A stretch of DNA of 64,000 bases. Origin: a virus. Position numbers and translations under genes: made by a program. Positions 3,301 through 57,236 of this stretch are shown one piece after another. Location: IMG/VR virus record IMGVR_UViG_3300021255_002737; one strand, given 5' to 3'. A model generated the notes under the pieces. The model did no database searches and was not told the origin of the DNA. It was given only the letters and a program-made list of their open reading frames with translations. Within the stretch, counting starts at the first letter, position 1. Every line of letters begins with the position of its first letter.

Positions 3301-3954
3301 ATCGTGATACTGGTTGCCGTTGATGCGAATCCAATGACTATGATATGGTTTGTCTTCTGGGATAGAGTAGTGAGCATCTGTTGTTACAACAAGGGGAGCA
3401 TCGTATTTCCTTGCCAACTCAATGACTTTGTCGTTGTACTCCCATTGTTTTTCGATGTTGAGCGGCTGAATCTCTGCATAGAAGCGATCTCCAAATAGCT
3501 CTTTGTATTTCTTGAACCACTCTTCACCATTCTCTGTGTTGACAATAGATGCCATACATGCAGACAAACAAATGAGTCCATCGTTATGTTCCCGTAGGGC
3601 TTCCCAGTCAATTCTAGGCTTGTAGTAGTACGAATCCTCATTATACGCGAATGTATCGAGCTTCTTGAGGTTCATATATCCTTCATCGTTCATCGCAAGG
3701 ATGACTAAGTGATGCGTCAGTGACTTATCCCTAATGTTCACATCGGGACAGAAGTAGAACTCGCAGCCAACAATAGGCTTGATGTCGTTTTTCTGACACT
3801 CCTCGTAGAAGCGGATGGTATTCCGCATAGTACCATGGTCAGTTAGGGAGATTGCAGACATACCCAATGATTTTGCACGTGCTACCATTTCTTGTACAGT
3901 TTGATAACCATCAAGTAGACTACCATCGCTATGGTTATGTAGTGAGATATACAT
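340..3954 (-). CDS. dnaE: DNA polymerase III alpha subunit (DnaE-type replicase) carrying a mini-intein
   Basis: 1204-aa ORF. N-terminal PHP motifs (SLHNHSDGSLLDG, TDHGTM, GCEFY). Conserved FNK/SHSVAYG motif (E. coli GFNKSHSAAYA) interrupted by 155 aa. AAGGAG ribosome-binding site upstream of the ATG. Confidence 0.9.
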   Translation of the reverse strand: MYISLHNHSDGSLLDGYQTVQEMVARAKSLGMSAISLTDHGTMRNTIRFYEECQKNDIKPIVGCEFYFCPDVNIRDKSLTHHLVILAMNDEGYMNLKKLDTFAYNEDSYYYKPRIDWEALREHNDGLICLSACMASIVNTENGEEWFKKYKELFGDRFYAEIQPLNIEKQWEYNDKVIELARKYDAPLVVTTDAHYSIPEDKPYHSHWIRINGNQYHDDENYIWSEDEIRNTRWIPQDVIEECIENTSRIAERCNVTIPDSGSHYPKYPCSNPKGKVREICRSHWKKLVPKGKYKEYAERFEMEMKDLEATNYLEYLLIIWSVLSWCKEQHIPIGEGRGSSAGCLVGYLMGIHKIDPIKYHTEFFRFCNRERRSPADVDSDLSTLNRGRVIEHVKEMYGNVCKVQTLGYTKDPDKPSAGKEAVLKAWQALFNKYKDNAPMVPCEEQGGLMIDPSWEYNPKFKIAASKFVESSIDDLQAAHISLNDEQKAELIDVAKHFCGRIDKVGIHASAVLVTPDDIVNYTPVEGCNTKNKATGEREYIRIACYDFHELEQRGNLKLDLLGLNTLDLIDKCMKYIGNDMNLDDIPMDNEKAYAMYSNGNLDGVFQMESPGMRKVAKELHVSCFDDVAALVALYRPGPLDSGMMQQYIDGKNGATIDYLCNVYKEVTKNTFGVIVYQEQCMKLAMKMAGYSLGEADMLRKVIGRKEMTKIDAAVKEFITRCMENGYSKEIAEKVGMQIKAAGRYLFNKCLSGREYIVTHTGAKTKRSICELYRFFHDDEYNKHQLDPWGVHGIKACSMDNDGKIVENYIVDVRESGVMPVFILETELGKRVRCTLNHKIPTPHGTRLLVELSVGDSVYVSDVLDTHIESVASITHECDEMCYDVEMDNPYHNFVTGNGIIVCNSHSVAYGRLSYKTAYLKAHYPAQFMCALLNTKNDNQEKVIPYLANCKEMGIRILPPDFSKGNKEWQIEGEAIRVGLTYIKGVGKELTLSVQEETNCDYCSLTDWNSIVEHNNSDVVKGLIQAGALDFLNKSRGWMMSNLSNTKKYVKRLQQCRERIGFYRDGYEKAVNDKERARALRMANQWTEKRNNAEFVECKEGHYDKAAGEIATLGFSFSKVPGVLCGVASSVHEITTKNGNKMALVTFKTEDYGTYKGSIAPFLWGHGKTRYGRNKLFVEQGKTYEFMMKKNKQYMDIVDVKEVC
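1243..1707 (-). other. Mini-intein (155 aa, no homing-endonuclease domain) inside DnaE
   Basis: Begins CLSGREYIV (block A Cys1). Contains TLNH (block B TxxH). Ends YHNFVTGNGIIVCN followed by +1 Ser. Removing it restores FNK-SHSVAYG. Confidence 0.8.
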
Positions 3955-21170: not shown

Positions 21171-21215
21171 TGTCTACTTCCTTTCATTGTATATTCCATG
21201 AGATACATCGGAATC

Positions 21216-21257
21216 CAATGGAGGAACTATAGTTTTAAACATAAGGTTTTTCCATTG
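21216..21257. repeat. Hairpin family M3, copy 1
   Basis: Stem CAATGGA/TCCATTG around the conserved loop GGAGGAACTATAGTTTTAAACATAAGGTTT. Confidence 0.6.
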
Positions 21258-21319
21258 TCGTTCGATGGATTCATGGTTATCTGAATAGAGGGTTCAATAC
21301 TTCTGCTTGTTTAAATGAT

Positions 21320-21352
21320 TACTTACGTCAGTAAGTATTTGCGATAGCAAAT
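21320..21352. repeat. Tandem double hairpin, copy A1
   Basis: TACTTAC-GTCA-GTAAGTA followed by TTTGC-GATA-GCAAA. Inverted counterpart of 45720..45751. Confidence 0.6.
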
Positions 21353-21490
21353 CAAACACTGTATGAACTATTTGTCTTATTAAAACAAAATAAGCTATTG
21401 ATTTCATGTTGTGATTCCTATGATTTGTTTCTCATAGTTTATTCAACAATTCTTCAATAGCTTATTTTCAATTCAATAGTTTTTATAAAC

Positions 21491-21536
21491 AGACCTTTAG
21501 AAGATTTACTAACGTAAATCATTTGCTAAAGCAAAT
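21491..21536. repeat. Tandem double hairpin, copy A2, with conserved flank
   Basis: CAGACCTTTAGAA + GATTTAC-TAAC-GTAAATC + ATTTGC-TAAA-GCAAAT. Inverted counterpart of 45953..45997. Confidence 0.6.
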
Positions 21537-21601
21537 AATATTTAATCAAGGAGGAAACCACCCAAAGGTTATTCATTATTCTCATATTAGCTCGTGAATC
21601 T

Positions 21602-21644
21602 CAATGAAGGAACCAAAGTTTTAACTCTAAGGATTCATCCATTG
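21602..21644. repeat. Hairpin family M3, copy 2
   Basis: Stem CAATG/CATTG around the GAAGGAACCAAAGTTTTAACTCTAAGGATT loop. Confidence 0.55.
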
Positions 21645-21699
21645 TCATCCACGAAGTCTGTATGGAGATTCAATGTATACTCTATAGTACCCTCTTTAT

Positions 21700-21759
21700 T
21701 TACCCCTCTATATATAATGTCTTTTTTGGGGCATATTGTTCGGTCAAAATCAAAAGTTT
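21700..21759 (-). repeat. Conserved ~50-nt element, copy 1 of 3
   Basis: TTACCCCTCTATATATAATGTC-N6-GGGGCATATTGTTCGGTCAAAA. Confidence 0.6.
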
Positions 21760-21940
21760 AATCAAAGTTTTACTTAGCGTTCTAAAACATGTTCTATTTT
21801 TGCCATATTTAATGCGCCTATATGCCTTTTCTATGTGTTTTCTCAGCATATTTTGTGCAATACCAATGGACATTTATTTCAAGATACCATAGAAATATGC
21901 ACAGAAGGTTATGTCTCCTATGCATATTTGCTATAGTATC

Positions 21941-24900
21941 TTAACGGAAACCGTGTCGTTTTTGGTTATGGAGAATCGATTGGAACGCTCTTGGGTTCCT
22001 CTGGATCGCATTCATAACATCATCACTGGATGCGTGTGTATTCAGTACAACGACATTACCAGAGCCATCGGAATTACCCATGTTCTTAATGGTATCCGTC
22101 TGCTCCTGCATGAGCTGTTCCATGCGTGCATTCGGATTCGTCACACGGACTCCTTCGGCTCTCTTTGCTACACGTGGGGAAATCTGTGGAACATATGGTG
22201 TTGGATTCAACGCACCACCATCGGCAAATGCACCGTAATTCATGGCATCCAGATTGTCCTTACCAATGCGGCTCGTTGCTTCCGCTGTCATGACATATTC
22301 GCCATTAGAAAGAAAAACGAACCTGTCCTTGTCCGCTAGATATGCGAGGATACTATCAGATTTACCAGTGCCAGCACCACGAATCATACCGCCGTTAGCA
22401 TACGCTCTGCTCAGTAATCCGCCCATAGCATGACCACCCAGACTAATGGATGGCGTAGAACCTGCCATGAGCATTGCTTCGGTGAGTGCTTGCATCTGCA
22501 ATGTCTGTGCCTGAGTTGTCACTGTATTCGTCTGGACAGCCGTTGTATTCATTGTGTCTTTCAGGTTAGAGGTCTGTGTCAACGTATTGGAAACATTGGT
22601 GAGTGCCGTTGCTTTCTGTGTGACATTACTGAGTTGACTAGTTGCTTGTACAGACTTGTTCACGGAGGATGCGAGTTCTCCACCACTGGATTTCATGGGG
22701 AAGTAATTGCCATTCAGTACACCGTTGCTCATATCAAGATAACGATTACCCGTTGCAACCTGTGTCCATCTCCTTGGTGTAGCCGTGAATCTCGACGCAT
22801 TATTTGCAAGAAGTCCAACACCTGCATTGACAGCCGCGTTCTTCCCTGCATTACGATTACTGATTGCATCGTCAATCGTTGTTCTTGCATTGAACAGCCA
22901 ACGGTTGACCGTCATTCTCATGATCTGTTGCAATGCAATCTTAGCAACGTCATCCCAGAGCTTTTTCCATGACTCTTTGAAGGAACTACCTTGCTTGATA
23001 ATATCGAAGAACATATCATCAATATCACTCTCAATGGTGCTCCAGAGATTCTTTGTGACTTCATCGTCCTTCTCAGCAATCTCACGGATTTTCGCTTCTG
23101 TTTCTTCGACCTCTTTTTGTATTTTCTGGAAGTTCTCACTGCCATGCTTTGAAAGCTGGTCAATGTTTTCCTTGAGGTCTTTGGCCTTTGCCTTGAGTTC
23201 CGCAATCTTATCCTTGGCCTCATCCGTGTTGTCGCCCTTGTATTGAGCAAGTCCCTTCTCTACGAGTTCACCCTTCTCGTTGTGCTTACCATTCTGGATA
23301 TCATCAAGCTGTTCGTAGTATTCCTCAAGCTGTTCTTGGTCACGCCTACGAATATCCATGAGACTTTCCCTTTGTCTCTTTAGTCTCTCGTTGTAAATAT
23401 CAATTTGAGACTGATAGAGTTCATGGGTATCCATATACTTTTCCTCGTCAGTTTTATTGGAAGTTGTACGGTTATACCATTCCTCAAGGCGTTTCAGACG
23501 GAAGTCCTCATCCTGTTCAGGAGTCATATAGCCATTGCGAATCTTTTCATTTACACGTAACTCAGCGAGTTTGCTATCGGCGTTGCTTAACTGCTCACGA
23601 ACCTTAAAGAGGTTATCAACGAGTTTCTTGAACTCATTATCCTTCTTACTGGTTAAATCAGCGAGCTTTCTTAATTCGTCCTGTGGCATGTCATAAATGC
23701 TTTTGCCGTCGAGTTTATTTTTGATTTCTACGTGCTGATTAAGGTATTCGTCAATATCGTCCGTAAGATTATCATAGGTCTCAACCCATCCCTTACGGTT
23801 TTTCTCTACGGCTTCATAGTATGACTTTTCGCTTGCATCGTTTGCACGAAGTAATTCATAGGTATCGCCATGAATCTTCATCTGATACTCGATGTTTTTC
23901 TTCTTCGCTTCGTAGAGTTTTTGCTGACGGTCTTGGTCATAGATAGTTTCTGCAATTTGATCTCTTGTGAAATCTGCAAGGGTACTCTTGCGACCATCCC
24001 AGAAAGACGGTTTACGAATACTATTAGCATTGCCCTGCATCGGGCCATTGTGATAGCGATTCCATGCTTCGGTGCCTGTACCATCACCAACAAGAGGGCC
24101 TGATGCAGAGTCAACAGTTCTTCCGTCGTTACCCTGACCAAAGGACACATCGTAGTGAGTGCCACTTTCAACCGCGGCAGAAACACCATAATCTCCAAGA
24201 ATATCTTTAAGTACTGCCCCATTATTGTCTATGGACAAGTCTGCTTTATACCCCGCATAGTGTCCCCACGGAGAATTTGAGTGTCCCGAGCCACCAGTCA
24301 ACGATGTAATGGCTAATTTTTGACCAGTTGCGGCATAATAACGGTTTGCAATGATATTGATAAGCCTACGGACGTATGGCTGTAGATTCTCAATGTTATC
24401 CCAGCTGCCACTCATTGTGATATATCGAGAGTCAAGGCCATACATAGACTTATCATCAACATCGTAGCCGCCACTCTGGATACCATTGACATCACCAGAA
24501 GCTCCTTGTCCTTGACCAATGAGTCCTTCTGACATGATACCTCTCATGCTTGCGGCATAGTCATTAGGATTAGCCGTGAAATATCCATTGGCATACATGC
24601 CATTAGCAAGTTCCTCTGGACTAGACGGCTCAGAATCAAAGTCGTTGTCAATTGTATTGGCAAGTTTTGTTGTAAAGTTATCGTCACTACCTTCGTCTAC
24701 ATCTTCGCCACCATCCATACCAGCAAAGTTGTGATTCCGTTTTGCAGCATCGCGCTTGCCACGAGCTGACTCATGCATCATGATGAGCCAATACCAGAGA
24801 GGATTCTTGACCTTCCGTGCTTTACCAGCGGCATCTACGGCGAGTTCCCAAAGATGTGCTTCGTCTGAATCATTGCCAATGTATGCTTGACCATCGGCAG

Positions 24901-26848
24901 AAACAGAGCCACTATAGCCACCAAGGTCATAGAGTCCACCTGCTTGCTCATTTGGATCACTGAATCTTTGGTCATTCTTATTGTAATCATAGTGATTACG
25001 GAGGAACAATGCTTTATCGTTTAACCATGTTTTCCAGTCTTGATCCGTAATGCCAGGCGTAAGGTGTCCCAGTGCTTCTGGCACAGAGAGTCCCTGGGCA
25101 AGATATGGTGCCATCTTCTCATAAAACAAACGTCCAGATTCCCATGTATTGCGTCCACCAGTGCCAAATGGGTCAGACACACCATCGAACTCAAGAGTAT
25201 TAATACCAGTCAATTTCGTGACAATAGCAGACAATGTAGCGATGTCAAGGCCATTCCTTGTATCAAAGTTGGCCTCAAACTTTTTAGACAACTCTGCAAA
25301 CATCTGTGATGTCGTGTCGCCATACTGCCAATCCTCTTTTGGGTCTTTCTTTGTGCGTTCACCGCCACTACTACCGCGCTTTTGTCTTTCACTAGGTGTA
25401 CGATTATACACGTCGCCACCAGCACCTTCACCGGAACCCCATTTTTGCAAGAAGTCATTAGGGTCATTAACAACAGGGGCACTTGTATTAAGTCCACTGG
25501 CAAGATTCGATGCTTCCTGTGTGGCTTTATCAGCCGCCGCTATGATTTTATCGTATCCTGCATGGTATGCTTCCATATACCTGTCGCCCTTAACATCCTC
25601 TTGTGCATTTTCTGCATTTTTGCGCATTTCTGCAACTCTTTGTGTTAAATTACGATACTGTACAACCTCTGCGTTTGACATATGGTAGTCTGGGTCATTG
25701 TATCTGTCATTCATCTCGTCAATTTTGCTTTGCAGTTCATCTGCTTGCTTCGTATAGCTATTAGCCTGTGCTTGGTCGAACTGTTCTTTCATTTGATAAA
25801 AGGCAGTATATGCATTTGCCCAATCGCCGAGTGCCTTAATTCTATCACTAATACCATTGCAGAACTCATATGTCTCTTGTTTCCAGGTATTGAGGTTATC
25901 CTGTGCGTTCTGCCAGTTATTCAGAGCCTCTTGCTGTTTTGCCGAAATAAATTCAGCCAATGCCCTTTTCTTGTCATCCGTTGCTTTCTTATAGTTGTCC
26001 CGCACCTTCTTTGTAGAATCATCTGTCCAGTTATCCGCTTGCATCTGTTGTACAGCAGACCATCCGACAACCTGTGCCATTTGGTTCTCTGTTTCGATAC
26101 GATCCTCAAGGAGTTTCTTCTTCTTCTCGTCGCTGACCGTGGAACTCTCAATCTCTGCCGTGAGCTTCTGGTGAGCAGTAAAGAGTGCATCAAGAAACTC
26201 CTCCTGCTGTGTGTACATTTCAATCTCTTGGCGCTTCACTGCCACGCTATCCTGGATTGCTTCGGTCTGTTTCTGTACGGCATTTGTACTCTCATTGATG
26301 TTGCTTGTGAGTGCTTCAAGACCAAGGTCAAGTGCAAGAGAGACACCGAATGTTGCGGTGGCTTTCAGTAAACTAATACTGTTCTTTAGTGAAATGATAG
26401 CGGCTTTCAGTCCCCCTGCTGCTGTTGTTGCAGCAGCAAAGGCTGTTGACATGTTACTGATTGTCGCTGTTGCACCACTTGCTGTAATCATGTTTAACGA
26501 TGTACGAACCATTCTCATAGCTCTGTTTACAGCGTACATGATAGCAGCTAATTTCACCATGCTACCAAGGAAACTGTATGTGGATGTACTGACCGTAGAC
26601 AGGTAATGTGCCAGATTATCTAATTCCGTAACGCATTCCTTGAGCCATTCGGTAAGGCCACTGTTGCCACCTTGTGCAACCATACCAGTCAAGTCGGCCT
26701 TGAGTTTATTAATGCGACGAGACAGGGAATCCATCTGGTTTTTCACCTGGTTATCCGTGAATCCCATGGAATTGACAGCAAGGCCCCAGTTCTTGATGAT
26801 TTCCTGATAGTTACTGAACATTGCTGCTGCTTTTGCCCATTGAAACTT
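21941..26848 (-). CDS. Tail tape measure protein, exon 2 (contains two muralytic domains)
   Basis: Continues the TP901-type core (KFQWAKAAAMFSNYQ...NSMGFTDNQVKNQMDSL). Hydrophobic segment and long coiled coils. Glucosaminidase-like HESARG...NHNFAGM and LAS/M15-like SGHSNSPWGHYAGYKADL...THYD. Confidence 0.8.
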   Translation of the reverse strand, partial: KFQWAKAAAMFSNYQEIIKNWGLAVNSMGFTDNQVKNQMDSLSRRINKLKADLTGMVAQGGNSGLTEWLKECVTELDNLAHYLSTVSTSTYSFLGSMVKLAAIMYAVNRAMRMVRTSLNMITASGATATISNMSTAFAAATTAAGGLKAAIISLKNSISLLKATATFGVSLALDLGLEALTSNINESTNAVQKQTEAIQDSVAVKRQEIEMYTQQEEFLDALFTAHQKLTAEIESSTVSDEKKKKLLEDRIETENQMAQVVGWSAVQQMQADNWTDDSTKKVRDNYKKATDDKKRALAEFISAKQQEALNNWQNAQDNLNTWKQETYEFCNGISDRIKALGDWANAYTAFYQMKEQFDQAQANSYTKQADELQSKIDEMNDRYNDPDYHMSNAEVVQYRNLTQRVAEMRKNAENAQEDVKGDRYMEAYHAGYDKIIAAADKATQEASNLASGLNTSAPVVNDPNDFLQKWGSGEGAGGDVYNRTPSERQKRGSSGGERTKKDPKEDWQYGDTTSQMFAELSKKFEANFDTRNGLDIATLSAIVTKLTGINTLEFDGVSDPFGTGGRNTWESGRLFYEKMAPYLAQGLSVPEALGHLTPGITDQDWKTWLNDKALFLRNHYDYNKNDQRFSDPNEQAGGLYDLGGYSGSVSADGQAYIGNDSDEAHLWELAVDAAGKARKVKNPLWYWLIMMHESARGKRDAAKRNHNFAGMDGGEDVDEGSDDNFTTKLANTIDNDFDSEPSSPEELANGMYANGYFTANPNDYAASMRGIMSEGLIGQGQGASGDVNGIQSGGYDVDDKSMYGLDSRYITMSGSWDNIENLQPYVRRLINIIANRYYAATGQKLAITSLTGGSGHSNSPWGHYAGYKADLSIDNNGAVLKDILGDYGVSAAVESGTHYDVSFGQGNDGRTVDSASGPLVGDGTGTEAWNRYHNGPMQGNANSIRKPSFWDGRKSTLADFTRDQIAETIYDQDRQQKLYEAKKKNIEYQMKIHGDTYELLRANDASEKSYYEAVEKNRKGWVETYDNLTDDIDEYLNQHVEIKNKLDGKSIYDMPQDELRKLADLTSKKDNEFKKLVDNLFKVREQLSNADSKLAELRVNEKIRNGYMTPEQDEDFRLKRLEEWYNRTTSNKTDEEKYMDTHELYQSQIDIYNERLKRQRESLMDIRRRDQEQLEEYYEQLDDIQNGKHNEKGELVEKGLAQYKGDNTDEAKDKIAELKAKAKDLKENIDQLSKHGSENFQKIQKEVEETEAKIREIAEKDDEVTKNLWSTIESDIDDMFFDIIKQGSSFKESWKKLWDDVAKIALQQIMRMTVNRWLFNARTTIDDAISNRNAGKNAAVNAGVGLLANNASRFTATPRRWTQVATGNRYLDMSNGVLNGNYFPMKSSGGELASSVNKSVQATSQLSNVTQKATALTNVSNTLTQTSNLKDTMNTTAVQTNTVTTQAQTLQMQALTEAMLMAGSTPSISLGGHAMGGLLSRAYANGGMIRGAGTGKSDSILAYLADKDRFVFLSNGEYVMTAEATSRIGKDNLDAMNYGAFADGGALNPTPYVPQISPRVAKRAEGVRVTNPNARMEQLMQEQTDTIKNMGNSDGSGNVVVLNTHASSDDVMNAIQRNPRAFQSILHNQKRHGFR

Positions 26849-27110
26849 CAATTTGTTACTCATAAAAAATAAGCCATAGCTTATCATTACGGGTACGGTC
26901 ATTTCTGCCGTACTCTCACGTTTTATTTCATGACTATATCGTGAGTTCGGACTATACATTCATCCCTCGACTTTACGTTAGGGAGGCTATTTGTAGTCTC
27001 TACGGTTCCCTATATAGGTTTTACCACGGTCTTGTCCTGTCATTAGGAGTTTAACCGTTATTAAAGCATACTAATAATATATTTCTATATTATGCGGCAA
27101 GTTTAGGTCT
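26849..27110 (-). ncRNA. Candidate group I self-splicing intron (262 nt, no ORF) in the tape measure gene
   Basis: R-like GUAGAGACUACAAAU (26990-27003) and S-like AUGUAUAGUCCGAAC (26945-26959) form P7 GACUA/UAGUC. P1 is GCGGU|AG with UUGCCGC, with a U.G pair at the splice site. P10 is AAACUU with the exon-2 start AAGUUU. Terminal G. P2, P3, P8, P9 and two further 3' hairpins can be drawn. The junction is in frame. Confidence 0.7.
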
Positions 27111-29222
27111 ACCGCCACTCATTTGAATCCAGAGGTCTTTCAGGTTTTTGTTTGTCCCTTGGGCAGCAACAGCAACATCCATTAAGACAGCCTGTGCAGA
27201 GCGAACTTTGGTGACACCATTGACAACCTCTGTGGTTGCAATGCCGAGCTTATTGAGTTCCTTTACAGCCTTATCGCTATTGAACGATGCAAGCATTGTC
27301 TTGAGCATATTACCAATTTCCGAACCACTCAATGCCGTTGCACGAGTACCTTGAGCAATGAGTGCATTAAGGAACTCGAAGGAGATTCCTGCCTGTTTAG
27401 CGACCGAACCAGAGCGTTCTACGCCAGCTGCAAGGTCTTGAGCAGAGACACCTGCATTGTGAGATAACTTGGTATATACATCGACAATCTTATTGGAATA
27501 TGCCAATGCTTCTGCACTGTTCTTTGCAACAAGTCCGTACTGGAACATAGCTGCTTCTACGGCCTTTGTGGACTCTGCCATAGAGAAGTTATCGGCAACA
27601 GCCAGTTTTGCTGATTGAGAAACCAATGTATTGACCGTTGCTTGGTCTTTGTACATACGTCCCCAAAGTCTTGCAGATTCCATAACATCCTTTACAGACT
27701 CACCGTATGCGCTTGCCGTGTTAATGAGTGCTCGTTGCTCCTCTTGGTATTTCTCAATGGCTTCAGACGATTTACCTTCAAGCTGCGGCATGACCGTTGC
27801 CAAGTTATGCATTTCCTCATCGAGTTTAACAAGAGAATTGAATGTTTCCGTTGGAACTGCAAAAGCCGCACCAAGCAATGAACCTGCGGTAATCCAATAC
27901 AGATGACTACGCAATTTCTGTTCAAACGACGCAAACTTTTTTGAAGGTTCAGTGTTGTTCACGTCTTTCTGGAAAGCCTCATACTCTTTCCGTACAGCTG
28001 CAAGGCTCGCTTTAACGTTATCCAGTGCGGCCTTATTTGCAGCAGTAGGATCGCTTTTCCAGAGGGCATAGACTCTCTGTTGAACATCTTCAAGTCTACG
28101 AAGTTCCCTTGTATACGATTGGATACCCTCTGCCCATTTACCAGTTGGATCAACTGGCTGTACAGAAGGTGTAGTTGGTGCAGGATTCTTTGTTGTGTTC
28201 ATACTTCTCTGATAGGCTTCTTGTTCTGCCCTTACCTTTGCAATGGTAGTAGCAAGTTTATCAAGGTTTTGCCTTGCTTCCTGTGAGCCATCGTGTCTCC
28301 AGACGATATACATCTGCTCCTGCAATGCCATCAACCGTGATAATTCCTGGGAATACGTCCTGAGTCCAGTTGACCATGCTTCAAGGTTCTTCTGCATAAC
28401 AGCCTTGTTTTGTGCTTCGGAATTGTTGAATGAGCTGAATGGAGACGTGAATGTCTTTGCTCCGCCGATTTTCTGATATTCAGCAAGGAGTTGATTGAAC
28501 TGTTTCATTGATAACTCAAAGTCTGCTCTCTTGACCTGCTGTCCACGTTCCATAGCAAGAGTCTGTCTATCAATGATCCTTTCGATTTGTGTCTCAAGTT
28601 CTGCACGACGTTTTAACTCATCAATAGCAGCCTGAGTACTCCACTTATATGTCGAGTAGTTCTCACTATTGTAAACATTGTCACGAGCAATACCATATTC
28701 TCTGAGCTTTGTAATGACCTCATCCAACGCATTTCTGCGGTTATACCATGTAGATTCAGGAATGAGCTTATTGTTACTCTGGGCAATCGAAAGAGTGCGT
28801 GTTAACTGCTCGTACTTCTTGAGTAATTTATCAATAGCTTCATTGTCTTTAATAGCAGCTTCCTGCATCTTCGTCATGTCCTGAACAAGGTTATTGAAAG
28901 AGCTTGCCTTGATATTTTTCAGGGTATCTTCCAGAGTCTTTTCAAGGGAACGTAAAGACTGCTCTGTCTGCTCTACACCATTAACTTTAATGGATGCGCC
29001 CTTGTTCAGCAACTCAATGCCACGCTTAACCTCACGCAAATCCTCACTGATCGTGTGAAGGTTTGATTTGAAGTTATCATTAACACCAATATTTACATTG
29101 GAATTATTCAGTTTATCAACGAAATTCTTTGCACTTTCGAGGGATTTCTTGACACCCTCAATTTTATCCGTGCCATTGGCAATGATATTGATTTCATATA
29201 CCAACTGTTGTTTGTCTGCCAT
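27111..29222 (-). CDS. Tail tape measure protein, exon 1
   Basis: Start refined to MADKQQLVYE (GGAGGG ribosome-binding site). Coiled coils followed by the TP901-family core (SAYGESVKDVMESARLW...AQDLAAGVERSGSVAKQAGISFEF...). As a stand-alone ORF it would end RPKLAA* inside the proposed intron. Confidence 0.8.
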
Positions 29223-29294
29223 TTTATCCCTCCAATTTGACATAAAAAAATAAGGGATACCATGTTTTACCACGATACCCCTTTGTTATATCAG

Positions 29295-40724: not shown

Positions 40725-40799
40725 TGGAGCTACCAGCAGGAATTGCACCCGCGTCCATGGTGTACAAGGCCATTGTTCTGCTTATTGAACTATGGTAGC
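40725..40799 (-). tRNA. tRNA-Thr (anticodon UGU), slightly non-canonical
   Basis: Manual cloverleaf: acceptor GCTACCA/TGGTAGC, D arm GTTC-AATAAGCA-GAAC, anticodon loop CTTGTAC, T arm GCGGG-TGCAATT-CCTGC, encoded CCA. Deviations: a 31-39 C/A mismatch and G at position 55. Confidence 0.6.
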
Positions 40800-41747: not shown

Positions 41748-42523
41748 ATAACACCATACCTTTCAAAGAAACATTCCTTATTCTCGACAACAATCACAAG
41801 ACGTTAACCTTGCTTTTGCTATAAAATAACGGCGAGCGACAGGGAAGGAATGGTAAAACCTGTCAATGGGGAGCTACCCCGACTCGCCGGTATAAACAAA
41901 TAAACATAAAACTACACTGGAAAATAAGGTTTCCCTTTATGTCCTCATGTTCTGTGTTATTGTGTTACGAGCAATACAAGTCTGAGCAACGACTAGCAAC
42001 TTTCGCGCTTCTTGCACTAGGAGCTAACTCCCCTATGACTCGACAGGACTATGACCTGCATCTTTCATTCATCATTCAGAAATGATATGCTTTTTCTAAC
42101 CAATATTATGCAGATTGAACTACTCTACCTATCTACTTCCGTTATAGCTGCGGTTAAACAGCGTCACTGCAATACCTGTTTGATTGGGTTTATACCTATG
42201 GTTAGACCATGTGAACCCAGACACATGATTTCATAGGCGACCGTATTGGTGCTTGCACAGGCCGGAAGGGACGGACACTACACTCGACATGATTCACACA
42301 TATCCCAACAAGATAAGCTCTTTGAACTCTCATCGGCATAATCGCTTACGTCAACTAATGAATGGTACAGGCTATCGTCTATATCATCCATTTCTCTTAA
42401 CAGGGATATTCTCAGCGGACTGACAATCCTCTGCACTGAGTTATCTTCCAGTACAGTTTTATGTCTATTTATAATGGTGGGGATGGTTTAATTGGACACA
42501 TCCCCATAAAAATAAAATATTAC
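41748..42523. ncRNA. Candidate large structured non-coding RNA region (776 nt, no ORF) next to the tRNA genes
   Basis: Dense local hairpins, including a three-way junction at 41830-41889 (CGGCGAG/CTCGCCG enclosing ACAGG/CCTGT and GGGG/CCCC). Confidence 0.35.
41790..41818 (-). promoter_or_regulatory. Shared operator/promoter box upstream of an antirepressor gene, copy 1
   Basis: CAATCACAAGACGTTAACCTTGCTTTTGC; 28 of 29 positions identical to 43139..43167. Confidence 0.5.
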
Positions 42524-43252: not shown

Positions 43253-43266
43253 AGAGTGTAATTAAA

Positions 43267-43316
43267 TTACCCCTCTATATATAATGTCGAAAAATGGGGG
43301 TAATTGTTCGGTAAAA
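43267..43316 (-). repeat. Conserved ~50-nt element, copy 2 of 3
   Basis: TTACCCCTCTATATATAATGTCGAAAAATGGGGGTAATTGTTCGGTAAAA. Confidence 0.6.
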
Positions 43317-43329
43317 CGCAAAATTTTTT

Positions 43330-44826: not shown

Positions 44827-45483
44827 TTATGGTTCATATTCTTCTGCAATCCTCGACAACCTTCCACGGAAGTTCCGTGTCAGCTCAACCTTACGTCCAA
44901 TGTGTTCAACCATGTAATTGCCATAGTCGACAAAGCAATGTTCCTTGTCGCCTGGATTGTCACTCTGACGGGAATCACCTAATAACACACATTTAGAATC
45001 ATCATGAATGCGCGTCAGGACAAGACGCAGGTCACTCACGCCCATATTCTGTCCTTCGTCGATGATAACAAGGCAATCCATGAGGTTTACGCCGCGAAGG
45101 TTATTGTCTGTAATAAGCATGACCTGTTCTGTATTGACGAGTGCCTGAATATCTCTCTGTGAAAAGCCAAGGACTTCCAGTGCATCGTATGCAGCATAAT
45201 ATAACTGCGCTGTTTTCTGCTCAAGGTCTCCCGGTAAATATCCGTTGGCATAGCTGCGTTTTGATGGTTTGATGATATAGATGATTTTACTGATAACTCC
45301 ATTGGCGAGCATATCAACCCCCGCAGCAAATGCAACGGTTGTTTTACCAGAACCAGCCTTGGCTTCCACAAACGTAAATGGAACCTCAAGGATGCTATCG
45401 AACATCACATGTTGTTCATTGGACATCCTTTTGTAAAACCTGTCACGATCCTTGTTGAACAGCGGAATTTCTTTGTCATTCAT
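44827..45483 (-). CDS. phoH: PhoH-like ATPase
   Basis: Walker A AKAGSGKTT, Walker B VIIDEGQN, and LLGDSRQSD. Confidence 0.8.
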   Translation of the reverse strand: MNDKEIPLFNKDRDRFYKRMSNEQHVMFDSILEVPFTFVEAKAGSGKTTVAFAAGVDMLANGVISKIIYIIKPSKRSYANGYLPGDLEQKTAQLYYAAYDALEVLGFSQRDIQALVNTEQVMLITDNNLRGVNLMDCLVIIDEGQNMGVSDLRLVLTRIHDDSKCVLLGDSRQSDNPGDKEHCFVDYGNYMVEHIGRKVELTRNFRGRLSRIAEEYEP

Positions 45484-45719
45484 GTCTTGTCCTCCTGCAA
45501 ATAAAAAAGACCATAGTATCCCATTTCAGAGACATCCTATGGTCTTACCTTGGTACATCTATAGTATATACATTGTATATACTATGTGTATCAATGGATA
45601 TTATTGTATTCTATTGTTAAAACCTATGAAATACATCCATAGTTCTTCTAACGTCATTCAATGATTTGATTGAAAGAGTATAGTCTTATCAATGGACACA
45701 TGGTTTATACAGTGTTCTG

Positions 45720-45751
45720 ATTTGCTATCGCAAATACTTGCTAAAGCAAGT
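45720..45751. repeat. Tandem double hairpin, copy B1
   Basis: ATTTGC-TATC-GCAAAT followed by ACTTGC-TAAA-GCAAGT. Confidence 0.6.
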
Positions 45752-45834
45752 GAATCTATTTAATCAAGGGAAGGTTTGGAACCATCATTGCACTCACATT
45801 GCTTACTCATTAACCCTATGTCTATCATTGTTAT

Positions 45835-45875
45835 CAACGGAGGAACTATGGTTACTATCTAAGGTTCTATCGTTG
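45835..45875. repeat. Hairpin family M3, copy 3
   Basis: Stem CAACG/CGTTG around the GAGGAACTATGGTTACTATCTAAGGTTC loop. Confidence 0.55.
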
Positions 45876-45952
45876 GTATCAATGTATTCTATAGACACTC
45901 AATGGATACTCAATGTATTACTATGTACTCTCATTGTCTGTCTGTTTATATT

Positions 45953-45997
45953 ATTTGCGAAGCAAATGATTCACGAAGTGAATCTTCTAAAGGTCTG
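45953..45997. repeat. Tandem double hairpin, copy B2, with conserved flank
   Basis: ATTTGC-GAA-GCAAAT + GATTCAC-GAA-GTGAATC + TTCTAAAGGTCTG. Confidence 0.6.
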
Positions 45998-46076
45998 TTT
46001 ACAGAGATTCAATGTATTCTATAGTATCTCTATGGTCTCCCCTATAACCCCAAAAGGGTATATTTTCCCCCACGAC

Positions 46077-46095
46077 TTCCCTTTCTTTTCTCTTT
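46077..46095 (+). repeat. 19-nt polypyrimidine tract, partner of 46221..46239
   Basis: TTCCCTTTCTTTTCTCTTT. Confidence 0.7.
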
Positions 46096-46220
46096 ACCCT
46101 GTCACTGCCGCCGTGAAGGTTCCAATGCATGACTCTGATTTGCACCATGCAGGTAAAGAGGAAATAGCCCGACTTCCTACAGTCAGGCAAGGAATATTCT
46201 GGGAGATGTCAACATCTTCC

Positions 46221-46239
46221 AAGGGAAAGAAAAGAGAAA
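46221..46239 (+). repeat. 19-nt polypurine tract; same-direction complement of 46077..46095
   Basis: AAGGGAAAGAAAAGAGAAA. Confidence 0.7.
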
Positions 46240-46346
46240 AGACAAGGCTCATTCCTGTGTACCTGATACCAGTGTACGGCGGTTCCACCCTGTCCAGATT
46301 GAGAGAACAGTCACGCTGTCAACGAGTGACAATGAGGTCAATAAAA

Positions 46347-46395
46347 TTACCCCTCTATATATAATGTCGAAAAATGGGGGTATTTGTTCGGTAAA
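46347..46395 (-). repeat. Conserved ~50-nt element, copy 3 of 3
   Basis: TTACCCCTCTATATATAATGTCGAAAAATGGGGGTATTTGTTCGGTAAA. Confidence 0.6.
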
Positions 46396-47062
46396 TCTCA
46401 AAAAAAATACAAAAAATTTTTTCAAACCTCTACAATGCCGTGTATGCTCATTTAGGTATCACCTGTATCACCATGCTCAAACCGTTGATTTACAAGGCTT
46501 TACGGCGATTCTACGGTGTTATGGCAATGGATTCCCTTGTTTCACCCTCGATAAACCCTTGTGGCGTAAGGGTTTGCGGTGTATTTCACTGAAATCATGG
46601 GATTTCCGCAGAGATGCGTAAAATTTCCACTGAGGTGCGCGGTTTGTGCTGTGACTATGCGGGCGATTTTACTGAGAACGTTTCCCATATTGGTACACGC
46701 AAAAGCACCCACCATGTCCGCGTCTAGTGTACAATTCAATGTGATTCTCGCGAATCCCTTATATATAGCCATTCTTAACATCATATTACTATATGTTATC
46801 ACATGTATATTCTGATGACAACATAATATGATAACGTATCTCATTGAATGACATTGATATACATTGTAATTCCGATGACTACAACAATGCGCTGCTGTTC
46901 GAGTTAATGGCTGTCCGTTGATAACATATGAATAACCATTCATATATCAGTGGTATAGAACGCGCGTCAATCAGAATGCATTCTTATACATTCAATGTAT
47001 ATCTATACAATCTCATTGCAATCTCATTGCCCTACACTAGATATTCATTGTAATCCAGTGCC

Positions 47063-47133
47063 TTACATTGGAATTTCATTGCCCTGCACTAGAGTCTTAT
47101 TGTAAACTAATTACTTACATTGGAATTTCATTG
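47063..47133. repeat. Iteron-like direct repeats
   Basis: TTACATTGGAATTTCATTG occurs at 47063-47081 and 47115-47133, with many additional CATTG motifs across 46980-47200. Confidence 0.6.
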
Positions 47134-53967: not shown

Positions 53968-54188
53968 AACATATATTGACATATAGAATTATTGGAGAAC
54001 CTGAGTATGATTCTAAAAGGCAAAGAAAATGGCGTTCAGAGGGTTATTGCCTTGAAACAGATCACAGGGTATGGGTGCTGTATAACCTTGGGGAACGTCC
54101 ATTGATACGAACAATGAAGGACAAGGTTATTAGGTCTGCAGCGGAAAGGAGATGGGAACACTATGGGAAGCACGAGTTTATGGCATGA
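53964..54188 (+). CDS. Hypothetical small protein
   Basis: Start refined to MKHILTYR after GGAGG. Confidence 0.55.
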   Translation: MKHILTYRIIGEPEYDSKRQRKWRSEGYCLETDHRVWVLYNLGERPLIRTMKDKVIRSAAERRWEHYGKHEFMA

Positions 54189-54957
54189 CTTCCTGGACGA
54201 TGTCCATGCAACAAAGTCAGAGAACACATACAAAAGCTATCAGAATGCCCTGCGGTATTTCAAGGATGGTTCACTAGAGGAAATTAGGGCGTTTCTAGGC
54301 AATGACCTTGCGGATAGTACTAAAAAACAAACGCTTAGAATCCTTTGTATTGCCCTTGAATACAATGACATGTATGATAATGCTCGTAGAAAACTCATCA
54401 AATCATATAGGCCGAACATTGTTATACAGGAGTGTCCTACGGATAAGGACATAGAGCTTGTATGGGACAATCTATTGACACACAGGGACCGGGCCATGTT
54501 CGCCCTGATGGCTTACAATGGGTTGCGCGTTGGTGAAGTCGCTGGATTCAACGTGGATGATTTACTGAGTGGGGATAGATTGATGCTGCGGAATACCAAA
54601 GGAAAACACGATGCTATCATCCCATTGGTTCATCCGCGTGTCCTGTCTAGTCTCAGGGCATATATTAAGGAAAGAAAAAGTACATCCCCTGCCCTGTTCT
54701 TGAATCACAGAGGGGCACGCATAAGCTCTAATGGGCTTACTCAGCTGATTCGTAACGAGTTTCATGACAATGGTTTGCCATTCCATGCACATAGCCTGAG
54801 AAGGTACTTTGCTAACACATTGTCAAGGAATGGGATTCCAGTGCAGGATATACAGGTAGCCATGCGTCACGCCAACATTGTAACGACAATGGGATACTTG
54901 AATATTGATGAAGATAGGACGAAAAGTGTATTACAGGAGGTTTATCATGCAATATAA
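54163..54957 (+). CDS. Tyrosine recombinase (small XerC/D-like integrase/resolvase)
   Basis: GLRVGEVAG (Arg I), HAHSLRRYFA (HxxR), MRHANIVTTMGYL (His/Tyr). Confidence 0.85.
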   Translation: MGSTSLWHDFLDDVHATKSENTYKSYQNALRYFKDGSLEEIRAFLGNDLADSTKKQTLRILCIALEYNDMYDNARRKLIKSYRPNIVIQECPTDKDIELVWDNLLTHRDRAMFALMAYNGLRVGEVAGFNVDDLLSGDRLMLRNTKGKHDAIIPLVHPRVLSSLRAYIKERKSTSPALFLNHRGARISSNGLTQLIRNEFHDNGLPFHAHSLRRYFANTLSRNGIPVQDIQVAMRHANIVTTMGYLNIDEDRTKSVLQEVYHAI

Positions 54958-56644: not shown

Positions 56645-56688
56645 CAAAAAACAAGGACTACCATTAAGATAGCCCTTGTTTTTTTTAT
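56645..56688. terminator. Bidirectional rho-independent terminator at the convergence of the plus and minus arms
   Basis: AAAAAACAAGG-...-CCTTGTTTTTTTT. Confidence 0.7.
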
Positions 56689-57236
56689 TGCTTGCGTTTG
56701 CAGTTTTGACAATAGGTACAAAAGGATTCACAATTCTGGGACTTGAGATATTCAGGAAGGTGGCAACGGACTTTCCCATCTGGATCAGTGACATTTCTTG
56801 CAACGTCCATTGGATACCGTAGCTTATCCTTTGGCGTCGTAGCGAATAACATAGGTGAGTCCTTTTTCAGCAAGGTGCGTAACTCAGGTTTTACCTTGGA
56901 AATACGCTGCATATGCCGTATAACAGAGCTGCGTGTGTAATGAAGTTCTCTTGCAATCTGCTCTTGGGTAAATCCCCTAGCTGTCATTAAAAACATCTGC
57001 CAGTCATCGTCTGAGAGGTTTGCTTTTAGGTCACAGAGGGTTTTCATGAGTTCCGCTTTCTTCTCTTGGTTCACCAATACGCTACATGGTTCCTCTCCAG
57101 ACTCAACGTAATCCATTGGCATAACATTGGACTTATTCTGGCTCCAATCCATGTAATTGATTCGACGTTGGAGATCATTGACATCAATGCGCCCCGCATT
57201 GTAGTCGTCAAGGAATTGCTCGATTGCATCCTTCAT
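56685..57236 (-). CDS. Sigma-70 region-4-like HTH regulator with a C-terminal Cys cluster (possible phage sigma or late activator)
   Basis: FLMTARGFTQEQIARELHYTRSSVIRHMQRI and C-terminal CHLPEYLKSQNCESFCTYCQNC. Confidence 0.6.
   Translation of the reverse strand: MKDAIEQFLDDYNAGRIDVNDLQRRINYMDWSQNKSNVMPMDYVESGEEPCSVLVNQEKKAELMKTLCDLKANLSDDDWQMFLMTARGFTQEQIARELHYTRSSVIRHMQRISKVKPELRTLLKKDSPMLFATTPKDKLRYPMDVARNVTDPDGKVRCHLPEYLKSQNCESFCTYCQNCKRKQ

What the first reader, a model, noticed from the sequence alone, without database searches (positions are those of the whole stretch)
45720..45997. Hairpin families shared between two distant non-coding regions show compensatory base changes
Three hairpin families occur in both 21.2-21.7 kb and 45.7-46.0 kb, and their stems differ by paired substitutions that keep base pairing intact:
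- GATTCAC...GTGAATC (45968-45984) versus GATTTAC...GTAAATC (21503-21520), with the same flank CAGACCTTTAGAA in inverted orientation.
- ACTTGC...GCAAGT (45736-45751) versus ACTTAC...GTAAGT (21321-21336).
- M3 stems CAACG/CGTTG (45835-45875) versus CAATG/CATTG (21602-21644) and CAATGGA/TCCATTG (21216-21257), around a conserved ~30-nt loop.

Three independent compensatory events indicate selection on structure, either RNA or extruded/ssDNA hairpins, rather than on sequence alone. I do not recognise these as a named element.
Basis: seen in the sequence. Interest (0 to 1): 0.65.

Follow-up and report, generated by a model that had tools for sequence, protein, structure and literature searches.

The report
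Paired DNA mini-hairpins in phage control regions
A temperate phage of the gut bacterium Mitsuokella carries four copies of a 45-nt module made of two back-to-back perfect hairpins. Their stems change only by matched substitutions, and their loops have the form that makes DNA mini-hairpins unusually stable, so they look like structure-dependent control signals, although what they do is untested.

Summary

**What is there**
- The window holds four modules, each made of two abutting perfect hairpins: 21320-21352, 21503-21536, 45720-45751 and 45953-45984.
- Dinucleotide shuffles of the window give 0.11 such pairs on average.
- Each module pairs a near-invariant ATTTGC-N3/4-GCAAAT hairpin with a variable partner (ACTTRC or GATTYAC).

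**Comparative evidence** (from about 15 related phage or prophage sequences, including a Mitsuokella multacida prophage)
- Every copy stays perfectly paired.
- Four of the six stem positions change on both sides. There are no one-sided changes and no G·U pairs.
- Loops vary freely in sequence and in length (3 or 4 nt).
- Loops nearly always keep 5'G…A3' on one flank-defined strand, closed by a C:G pair. This is the GCGNAGC/GCGNNAGC "mini-hairpin DNA" signature.

**Context**
- At 45.7-46.0 kb the modules sit in a stretch that gut metatranscriptome contigs never cover, between two covered stretches.
- At 21 kb they sit 34 nt on either side of an AT-rich dyad that looks like a bidirectional terminator.
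- The 21-kb cassette is an insertion found only in this narrow clade.

**Reading**
- Best reading: promoter-proximal, strand-specific DNA hairpin signals, resembling N4 promoter hairpins or ssi priming signals.
- RNA hairpins and duplex operators are not excluded.

The parts
21320..21365 (+). Module A: [T]ACTTAC-GTCA-GTAAGT[A] abutting ATTTGC-GATA-GCAAAT, then the conserved 3' flank CAAACACTGTATG. The G..A loops lie on the + strand.
21490..21536 (-). Module B, read on the - strand: ATTTGC-TTTA-GCAAAT abutting GATTTAC-GTTA-GTAAATC, then the 3' flank TTCTAAAGGTCTG.
45707..45751 (-). Module A', read on the - strand: ACTTGC-TTTA-GCAAGT abutting ATTTGC-GATA-GCAAAT, then CAGAACACTGTAT. The T-hairpin contains a candidate -35 (TTGCGA), with TATAAA 18 nt downstream.
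   Evidence: RNA contig boundary at 45686
45953..45997 (+). Module B': ATTTGC-GAA-GCAAAT (core GCGAAGC) abutting GATTCAC-GAA-GTGAATC, then TTCTAAAGGTCTG. Absent from the L005 relative because of an 81-nt indel.
21216..21257 (+). M3-1 dyad (CAATGGAGGAAC...GGTTTTTCCATTG), 63 nt 5' of module A. It folds better on the + strand, through G·U pairs.
21602..21644 (+). M3-2 dyad, 66 nt 5' of module B, measured in B's own reading direction.
45835..45875 (+). M3-45 dyad (CAACG...CGTTG), lying between A' (84 nt away) and B' (78 nt away).
21387..21468 (.). AT-rich long dyad (AAAATAAGCTATTGA...CTATGA-loop-TCATAG...TCAATAGCTTATTTT), exactly 34 nt from A and 34 nt from B. It looks like a bidirectional intrinsic terminator or an unwinding element.
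   Evidence: (-27/-29 kcal/mol, z about -7)
45998..46025 (+). Sigma-70-like promoter match TTTACA-16-TATAGT (the D17 motif), immediately 3' of B'. A related motif lies at 21665-21688.
   Evidence: RNA contigs begin at 46039-46075
45503..45547 (-). Intrinsic terminator-like hairpin (AGACCATAG...CTATGGTCT followed by TTTTTTATT) in the leader, just before the PhoH start codon at 45483.
   Evidence: sequence; conserved 8-bp stem in L005; RNA contig 45483-45686

Best explanation
The four modules are cis-acting DNA signals that work by folding, not by duplex sequence alone.

**Anatomy.** Each module is two abutting 6-7-bp hairpins plus a conserved flank of about 13 nt. On one particular strand, defined by the flanks, every hairpin has a C:G closing pair and a G(N)NA loop. 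This is the form that makes 'mini-hairpin DNA' (GCGNAGC/GCGNNAGC) extraordinarily stable, SSB-resistant and able to extrude from supercoiled duplex.

**Placement.** The folding strand always runs 5'->3' away from the nearest M3 dyad.
- At 45.7-46.0 kb the modules lie in a stretch that gut metatranscriptome contigs never cover. It sits between a covered leader that runs into the PhoH gene and a covered stretch starting near 46.04 kb.
- A-type hairpins overlap a candidate -35.
- B-type hairpins lie at about -80 to -49 of a candidate promoter.

**Proposed mechanism (inferred).** Negative supercoiling, for example between divergent promoters, or strand opening extrudes the hairpins. The stable G(N)NA strand persists and either masks promoter elements or is read by a phage factor. 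That factor could be a regulator, or the phage's own DnaG-DnaB primase-helicase working with its T7-type SSB. The result would be initiation of transcription, and possibly of priming, at four sites.

**Shown:** the anatomy, conservation, covariation, strand-specific loop signature, narrow clade distribution and RNA coverage pattern.
**Inferred:** DNA-level folding in vivo, promoter positions, and the reader protein.
For: **Pairing constraint**
- 100% of cells are paired; 4 of 6 stem pairs change on both sides; there are no one-sided changes.
- There is a symmetric arm shortening in L119 and an A-T to G-C swap in L005.
- Loop length varies between 3 and 4 nt at orthologous sites in phages whose flanking proteins are 98-99% identical.

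**Strand-specific loops**
- With orientation fixed by the flanks, every loop state is G..A on the same strand: GAA, GATA, GTAA, GTGA, GTCA, GTTA, GCTA, GACA. The only exception is TTTA.
- The closing pair is always C:G.
- Only GTAA and GTGA fit the RNA GNRA rule.

**Literature match**
- GCGNAGC/GCGNNAGC mini-hairpins occur at the G4, St-1 and alpha3 complementary-strand origins, in RSF1010 ssiA and in N4 early promoters (PMC13037366).
- In N4, the C:G closing pair and the loop 5'G and 3'A are exactly what small-hairpin extrusion at physiological supercoiling requires. An inserted hairpin also makes a sigma-70 promoter gyrase-dependent (PMC4496689).

**Transcription pattern**
- Gut metatranscriptome contigs cover 45483-45686 and 46039/46065-46500, but never 45687-46038.
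- Promoter-like hexamers adjoin the modules (sequence).

**Phage replisome**
- The phage encodes DnaE.
- Relatives encode a fused primase-helicase and a T7-type SSB just beyond the window.
Against: - There is no direct evidence of folding in vivo.
- Nearest-neighbour folding shows no strand difference. The review notes that such parameters do not capture mini-hairpin stability.
- Stems are AT-rich and short.
- The loop statistics rest on about 12 loop changes in a narrow clade whose paralogues exchange sequence.
- An RNA contig does cover module B at 21 kb.
- Wastewater 'RNA' libraries cover the whole 45-kb region.
- Candidate -10 elements next to A are missing in L003, L119 and L005.
- B' is dispensable in the M. 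multacida-type relative.
- No N4-type virion RNA polymerase was found in the ORFs scanned against PHROGs or Pfam, in the window or in the relative's end region (L157).
Confidence: 0.42

Rival explanations
1. RNA hairpins. The modules would be transcribed in their G..A sense and act in leaders or small RNAs. Possible roles are nut/put-like antitermination or attenuation signals, or RNA stabilisers, placed upstream of terminators.
For: - In its sense direction, each of three modules is followed by a terminator-like hairpin. A and B lie 34 nt from the bidirectional dyad. A' lies about 160 nt before the PhoH leader terminator.
- An RNA contig at 21461-21697 covers B.
- G..A loops with sheared G·A pairs also stabilise RNA loops.
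- The M3 dyad folds much better on one strand through G·U pairs, so some of the cassette may act as RNA.
Against: - No G·U pair occurs in any stem cell.
- 6 of the 8 tetraloop types are not GNRA, and triloops are common.
- Loops vary between near-identical phages, unlike protein-recognised boxB loops.
- A', M3-45 and B' are never covered in the gut metatranscriptome runs, although both flanks are.
- Module A at 21 kb is antisense to the tail operon, with no consensus promoter upstream of it on the + strand.
- No boxA lies next to the modules, and Rfam gives no hit.
Confidence: 0.22
2. Duplex operators. The palindromes would be tandem binding sites for dimeric phage regulators, either a repressor or a late activator such as the Cro/CI-type HTH protein or the GerE/sigma-4-like protein. 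These would control four promoters of one regulatory class.
For: - The sites are 15-17-bp palindromes in tandem. They overlap or lie just upstream of promoter-like hexamers, in DNA that the gut metatranscriptome contigs do not cover.
- Stem sequence, and not only pairing, is strongly conserved: ATTTGC is nearly invariant.
- Candidate regulators exist: HTH_3 in relatives, a weak GerE match in the ORF at 56685-57236, and antirepressors.
Against: - Half-site spacing changes by 1 bp (3- versus 4-nt centres) at orthologous sites.
- All of the half-site variants (ATTTGC, GTTTGC, ATTGC, ACTTAC, ACTTGC, ATTTAC, ATTCAC) occur only as perfectly symmetric pairs, which binding by a dimer does not require.
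- The central bases keep a strand-specific G..A, which has no meaning for a symmetric duplex site.
Confidence: 0.18
3. No dedicated function. The modules would be quasi-palindromes kept perfect by template-switch self-correction and by gene conversion among four paralogous copies, carried along in a duplicated regulatory cassette or as a remnant of a mobile element.
For: - The modules are mosaic and exchange parts. In the window and the L123 group, module B at 21 kb carries an A-type 5' flank. Identical hairpins turn up at non-orthologous sites.
- The 21-kb cassette is an insertion absent from all relatives with 56% identity or less.
- B' is lost in one lineage.
Against: - The modules persist in every member down to the relative with 63% protein identity, while the surrounding non-coding sequence diverges.
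- The G..A end bases are kept through about 10 of 12 loop changes.
- Placement is fixed relative to M3 and symmetric at 34 nt around the dyad.
- There are only four copies per genome, and none elsewhere in IMG/VR.
Confidence: 0.1
4. Recombination sites. The inverted copies 24 kb apart would be targets of the small tyrosine recombinase encoded at 54163-54957, inverting the 21.4-45.7 kb segment.
For: - Inverted repeats of 34 nt (88%) and 25 nt (96%) lie 24 kb apart.
- A 264-aa Phage_integrase-family protein is encoded in the window.
Against: - All relatives sampled show the same flank arrangement at both loci.
- Inversion would break the single-direction structural operon.
- No opposite-strand joints were seen at the modules in the contigs laid on the regions.
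Confidence: 0.03

Closest known systems
Bacteriophage N4 early-promoter hairpins (read by the virion RNA polymerase)
   Same: - Stems are short (5-7 bp) with small loops carrying 5'G and 3'A, closed by a C:G pair.
- The core is of the mini-hairpin type (N4: GCGGAGC; here GCGAAGC or GCGNNAGC).
- Stem bases that are not recognised may vary as long as pairing is kept.
- The structure forms on one specific strand of double-stranded phage DNA.
- There are several copies per genome.
(PMC4496689, PMC13037366.)
   Different: - Here the hairpins come in abutting pairs and loops may be 3 or 4 nt.
- The phage is a temperate, tape-measure-bearing tailed phage of a Negativicute.
- No giant virion RNA polymerase was found among the ORFs examined.
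- N4's conserved heptamer and +1 context are absent.
- The stable strand here is the non-template strand of the adjacent candidate promoters, whereas in N4 it is the template strand.
Single-strand initiation signals (G4-type origin hairpins; RSF1010 ssiA/ssiB read by RepB')
   Same: - Modules are about 40-50 nt: a 5' flank, a hairpin containing a mini-hairpin motif, and a 3' flank.
- They occur as inverted copies on complementary strands.
- A cognate replisome is present: DnaE in the window, and a DnaG-DnaB fusion and SSB in relatives.
- The 45-kb copies lie next to iteron-like repeats.
- The 21-kb copies flank an AT-rich dyad.
(PMC8567376, PMC13037366.)
   Different: - No origin has been mapped.
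- The hairpins are tandem and much shorter than ssiA (nt 7-27).
- Flanks show no conserved primase trinucleotide across relatives.
- One cassette sits inside the late tail operon.
- One relative lacks B'.
Lambda nut (boxA/boxB) and HK022 put antitermination sites
   Same: - Copies are in opposite orientation, associated with divergent transcription units.
- Small hairpins carry G..A loops.
- put consists of two adjacent stem-loops.
- Terminators lie downstream.
(This comparison rests on my own knowledge of these systems.)
   Different: - Loops here are 3-4 nt and hypervariable.
- There is no boxA and there are no G·U pairs.
- The 45-kb copies are never covered in the gut metatranscriptome runs that cover their flanks.
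Tandem palindromic operators of temperate-phage repressors (lambda OR/OL, TP901-1 OR/OL/OD)
   Same: - The sites are 15-17-bp dyads in tandem at promoters.
- Additional sites lie far from the immunity region.
(This comparison rests on my own knowledge of these systems.)
   Different: - Natural operators are imperfect dyads with fixed half-site spacing.
- These are perfect dyads with covarying half-sites, variable spacing and strand-specific central bases.

Membership tests
N4-type hairpin promoter | 5-7-bp stem, 3-nt loop with 5'G and 3'A, and a C:G closing pair on one strand | tested here: met
   Stems are 6-7 bp (5 bp in L119). Loops are GNA or GNNA. The closing pair is always C:G. The loop may be 4 nt, which N4 does not show.
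N4-type hairpin promoter | A cognate single-subunit virion RNA polymerase of about 3500 aa is encoded by the phage | tested here: not met
   The large ORFs are DnaE, a tail fibre, a split tape measure, TerL, the portal and NrdD. About 60 further ORFs scanned, in the window and in the relative's end region (L157), gave no RNA polymerase. Small unannotated ORFs cannot encode one.
N4-type hairpin promoter | Supercoil- and SSB-dependent extrusion, and transcription starting a fixed distance 3' of the hairpin on the template strand | not testable with these tools
   This needs structure probing and mapping of transcription start sites.
ssi / G4-type priming signal | A stable hairpin, often with a mini-hairpin motif, on the strand used as template, with copies on complementary strands | tested here: met
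   with the literature.
ssi / G4-type priming signal | Location within a functional replication origin and primer synthesis at the 3' flank | not testable with these tools
   There are only indirect hints: iteron-like 52-nt repeats at 47014-47117, a change of GC-skew sign at 46-48 kb that coincides with the switch in gene orientation, and a 74-77% AT dyad at 21 kb.
ssi / G4-type priming signal | A cognate primase is present | tested here: met
   A fused Zn-ribbon/DnaG/Toprim/DnaB_C protein of 675 aa is encoded in a relative, just beyond the window end (L157). It was not seen inside the window itself.
nut/put RNA antitermination site | Transcribed in the sense orientation downstream of an early promoter | tested here: inconclusive
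   B at 21 kb lies within an RNA contig of unknown strand. A' and B' are never covered in the gut metatranscriptome runs.
nut/put RNA antitermination site | A conserved loop (boxB GNRA-like pentaloop) and boxA, or long bulged put stems | tested here: not met
   Loops are 3-4 nt and hypervariable. No boxA is adjacent.
Dimeric HTH operator | Fixed half-site spacing, with half-sites that deviate independently | tested here: not met
   Spacing varies between 3 and 4 bp, and all variants are perfectly symmetric.
REP/MITE-like mobile palindromic element | Many dispersed copies, target-site duplications, and presence in unrelated genomes | tested here: not met
   There are four copies per genome. The IMG/VR pattern scan found true pairs only in 5 contigs of this clade. 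The B' indel is explained by deletion between D17-like direct repeats.
Intrinsic transcription terminator | A G+C-rich stem followed by a U tract | tested here: not met
   Stems have 1-3 G:C pairs and no T tract follows in the sense direction. The scan flags two hairpins only marginally.
Known RNA family (Rfam 15) | A covariance-model match | tested here: not met
   Nothing reaches gathering score, and nothing credible reaches E<=1, in either region.

The most novel reading that the evidence does not exclude
A temperate, sigma-70-dependent tailed phage of a Gram-negative Firmicute uses extruded, strand-specific DNA mini-hairpins in tandem as a general initiation signal. They would form a supercoil-sensing switch at four promoters or origins, read by a phage protein such as its primase-helicase or an unknown hairpin-binding regulator. 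This would extend the N4/ssi principle to ordinary double-stranded prophages.
Probability: 0.2. Interest if true: 0.8.

Novelty: new variant of a known kind. Interest (0 to 1): 0.55.

Why it matters
Regulatory DNA hairpins that extrude from duplex DNA are documented in very few systems: N4 early promoters and a handful of ssi or origin signals. If these tandem modules act in the same way, three things follow.
- Selection can maintain c[GNA]g and c[GNNA]g mini-hairpins in an ordinary temperate phage of a human and ruminant gut bacterium.
- The module gives a compact, testable cis-element of about 45 nt for supercoiling-dependent control.
- It offers a handle on the unknown transcription and replication programme of Selenomonadaceae prophages.

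Even if the elements prove to be RNA hairpins or operators, the data set is an unusually clean natural example of matched stem substitutions combined with free loop turnover.

Tried and rejected
**Searches that found nothing**
- blastn of 44-48 kb against 50,697 phage records: no match.
- Rfam at gathering score and at E<=1: only the ROOL RNA and a tRNA elsewhere in the window, and nothing in the two regions.
- IMG/VR pattern scan for the hairpin pair: 103 stretches, but only the 5 contigs of this clade hold true tandem pairs.
- Distant relatives found through the tail protein (56% identity or less) and through PhoH (about 50-55%): no cassette and no tandem hairpins. Comparative depth could therefore not be extended.

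**Tests that did not discriminate**
- Nearest-neighbour DNA and RNA folding of each module on both strands: identical structures and no strand difference.
- Wastewater 'RNA-Seq' libraries cover coding and non-coding DNA alike, probably from DNA carry-over.
- RNA contig ends at 46347, 46351 and 46391 coincide with the edges of the 64-nt D1 repeat, so I took them as probable assembly breaks, not RNA ends.

**Readings considered and set aside**
- Modules as terminators: rejected, because the stems are AT-rich and no U tract follows.
- M3 as an ECF-type promoter (GGAAC-N17-GTT): the spacing and the GTT are not conserved.
- M3 as a sigma-70 promoter on the - strand: this holds only for M3-1 in the window.
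- A conserved primase trinucleotide (CTG or GTC) in the 3' flanks: not conserved in L003, L119 or L005.
- Segment inversion: no evidence.
- Genome-wide CAATG enrichment as a binding motif: it is largely locked to codon phase.

Full report
**1. What the window is**

The 64-kb window is most of a tailed-phage genome. It encodes:
- a DnaE-type DNA polymerase (340-3954, - strand);
- a J-like tail protein;
- a tape-measure protein split into two ORFs;
- the large terminase subunit, the portal and NrdD;
- PhoH, a PAPS-reductase-like protein, antirepressors, RadC and a small tyrosine recombinase.

blastn against deposited phages finds nothing. Close relatives are five IMG/VR contigs, several gut-metagenome contigs, and a prophage in the Mitsuokella multacida DSM 20544 chromosome. 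A more distant homologue of the tail protein is in Selenomonas ruminantium. The element is therefore a temperate phage of Selenomonadaceae. In a relative, the DNA beyond the window end encodes a fused DnaG-primase/DnaB-helicase, a T7-type SSB and a Cro/CI-type HTH protein.

**2. Checking the observation**

Each named hairpin directly abuts an ATTTGC-N3/4-GCAAAT hairpin, which gives four tandem pairs:
- 21320-21337 with 21337-21352;
- 21503-21520 with 21521-21536;
- 45720-45735 with 45736-45751;
- 45953-45967 with 45968-45984.

Four abutting pairs with stems of at least 6 bp each compare with a mean of 0.11 (maximum 2) in 100 dinucleotide shuffles. Hairpins overall are not enriched (66 against 55). 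Each module folds as two abutting hairpins, with z-scores of -2.8 to -6.6 under DNA or RNA parameters. The two regions share the modules in inverted orientation (I1 and I5). They share three other elements in direct orientation: M3, a 20-nt motif (D17) and a 64-nt repeat (D1, also present at 43260).

**3. Comparative evidence**

The modules are present at both loci in every relative down to one whose neighbouring tail protein is 63% identical (L119).

Stems are always perfect. The variants seen are:
- GTTTGC/GCAAAC in L005;
- ATTGC/GCAAT in L119, where both arms have lost one base;
- ACTTAC/GTAAGT against ACTTGC/GCAAGT;
- (G)ATTTAC/GTAAAT(C) against GATTCAC/GTGAATC.

On 15 distinct units, 100% of cells pair. 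Four of six stem pairs show changes on both sides, and none shows a one-sided change such as G·U. No shuffle out of 500 reaches the observed covariation score. A fuzzy search found no degenerate copies at orthologous sites.

Loops turn over quickly, even between phages whose flanking proteins are 98-99% identical, and they switch between 3 and 4 nt.

I fixed the orientation by the conserved flanks: A-type ...[partner][ATTTGC hairpin]CARAACACTGTAT, and B-type [ATTTGC hairpin][partner]TTCTAAAGGTCTG. With that orientation, every loop state is G..A on the same strand: GAA, GATA, GTAA, GTGA, GTCA, GTTA, GCTA and GACA. The single exception is TTTA. The closing pair is always C:G. In L119 the order of the two hairpins in the B module is swapped, yet the G..A loops stay on the same strand.

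**4. The DNA signature**

On the G..A strand the core of the ATTTGC hairpin reads GCGNAGC or GCGNNAGC. This is the 'mini-hairpin DNA' motif of Hirao and co-workers. They describe it as extraordinarily thermostable and SSB-resistant. They report it at the G4, St-1 and alpha3 complementary-strand origins, in RSF1010 ssiA and in N4 early promoters (PMC13037366). d(GNA) loops depend strongly on a C:G closing pair (PMC3201870).

For N4, the closing C:G pair and the loop 5'G and 3'A are the features required for a 5-7-bp hairpin to extrude at physiological superhelicity. SSB melts the complementary-strand hairpin but not the G..A one. Such a hairpin placed inside a sigma-70 promoter makes that promoter gyrase-dependent (PMC4496689).

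Only two of the eight tetraloop types here obey the RNA GNRA rule. Together with the complete absence of G·U pairs, this leans towards a DNA-level structure.

**5. Context**

*The 45-kb region.* In the gut metatranscriptome runs, contigs cover 45483-45686 (the leader up to the PhoH start) and 46039/46065-46500. They never cover 45687-46038, which holds A', M3-45 and B'. Some of these runs may be duplicate deposits. Contig coverage is a weak measure, but the pattern repeats, and the 45686 boundary recurs in runs X5 and X56.
- B' lies just upstream of a TTTACA-16-TATAGT match.
- The ATTTGC hairpin of A' contains TTGCGA, 18 nt before TATAAA. That predicts a start near 45697 on the - strand, 11 nt from the RNA boundary.
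- The PhoH leader ends in a strong terminator-like hairpin with a T run (45547-45503).

*The 21-kb region.* A and B converge on a long dyad (21387-21468) that is 74-77% AT, with -27 to -29 kcal/mol and z about -7. Its flanking A and T tracts make it look like a bidirectional terminator. It lies exactly 34 nt from each module. One RNA contig (21461-21697) covers B, M3-2 and D17.

*Relation to M3.* In every case the G..A strand runs 5'->3' away from the nearest M3 dyad, which lies 63-84 nt away.

*Origin of the 21-kb cassette.* It is an insertion. In all relatives with 56% identity or less, the tape-measure gene abuts the next tail gene.

**6. M3**

M3 is a conserved dyad, but the consensus fold is weak (-2.9 kcal/mol). 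The CAATG to CAACG double change is one event between paralogues. CAATG and CATTG are the most over-represented pentamers genome-wide, largely in codon phase. M3 does fold much better on the + strand, through G·U pairs: -15.4 and -18.7 against -10.4 and -6.5 kcal/mol. If M3 is structural at all, it behaves differently from the A and B hairpins.

**7. Interpretation**

*Best reading (about 0.4).* The modules are promoter-proximal, strand-specific DNA hairpin signals. They would extrude under negative supercoiling or strand opening, and then mask promoter elements or be read by a phage protein. They work like N4 promoter hairpins or ssi priming signals.

They are not members of either family. 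No virion RNA polymerase was found, no origin has been mapped, the hairpins are tandem, and the loops may be 4 nt.

*Rivals.*
- RNA hairpins acting before terminators (about 0.2).
- Duplex operators for dimeric regulators (about 0.2). Variable half-site spacing, perfect symmetry of every variant and the strand-specific centres argue against this.
- Functionless self-correcting palindromes in a duplicated cassette (about 0.1).
- Recombinase sites (about 0.03).

*Shown:* the anatomy, the conservation, the matched substitutions, the loop and closing-pair signature, the clade restriction and the RNA coverage pattern.
*Inferred:* folding in vivo, promoter assignments and the reading protein.

**8. 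Novelty**

No named element matches. I place it as a new variant of a known kind, namely regulatory DNA mini-hairpins. It is confined to a narrow clade of Mitsuokella-type prophages.

Noticed in passing
window 41907-42464 (-): A full-length ROOL RNA (Rfam RF03087, 214.8 bits against a gathering score of 99.1) lies next to a tRNA-Thr at 40725-40799 (-).
   Followed up: no
window 46040-46339: A G+C-richer (48%) non-coding stretch gives the deepest contigs of the laid 44.8-47.8 kb region in the gut metatranscriptome runs. Its long-range pyrimidine/purine stem shows matched changes among relatives. RNAalifold favours the - strand (-76.8 against -68.5 kcal/mol). It is probably an unannotated structured RNA and has no Rfam match.
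   Followed up: partly
window 21693-21756, 43260-43323, 46340-46403: A 64-nt direct repeat (TTACCCCTCTATATATAATGTC...GGGG..TTGTTCGGT) occurs three times, each in an intergenic region among - strand genes. It could be a promoter on the - strand or a terminator-like hairpin on the + strand. The direction is unresolved.
   Followed up: partly
whole window: CAATG (233 sites) and CATTG (230 sites) are 3.2-3.7 times over-represented relative to base composition, on both strands. In genes they sit mainly in the phase NNC-AAT-GNN or NNC-ATT-GNN. Close relatives share the bias and distant relatives do not.
   Followed up: partly
window 21941-26959 and 27090-29273 (-): The tape-measure protein is split into two ORFs (727 and 1672 aa) that match successive parts of one PHROG tape-measure profile, with a 130-nt gap between them.
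   Followed up: no
window 21171-21940: The whole 770-nt non-coding cassette between the tape-measure gene and the next tail gene is a clade-specific insertion. In relatives with 56% identity or less the two genes abut or overlap. In S. ruminantium the same position holds 2.5 kb of small genes.
   Followed up: yes
window 340-3954 (-), residues 816-903: The DnaE-type polymerase has a sub-threshold Intein_splicing match (24.7 bits against a cut-off of 35.8) between the finger domain and the HhH domain. This may be a mini-intein or an intein remnant.
   Followed up: no
window 47014-47117: Two tandem 52-nt repeats (77% identical), rich in CATTG, lie within a 2.2-kb region without long ORFs, at the switch in gene orientation and in GC-skew sign. 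They resemble origin iterons.
   Followed up: no
window 45357-45398: RNA contigs in runs X15 and X21 join 45357 to 45392 on opposite strands and fold back by 166 nt inside the PhoH gene. This is probably a cDNA or assembly snap-back artefact. The identical contig appears in both runs, which suggests the same library was deposited twice.
   Followed up: no
window 56685-57236 (-): A 183-aa ORF has a weak GerE/LuxR-type (sigma region 4-like) HTH match (E 4.5e-4, below the cut-off). It is a candidate phage transcription factor.
   Followed up: no
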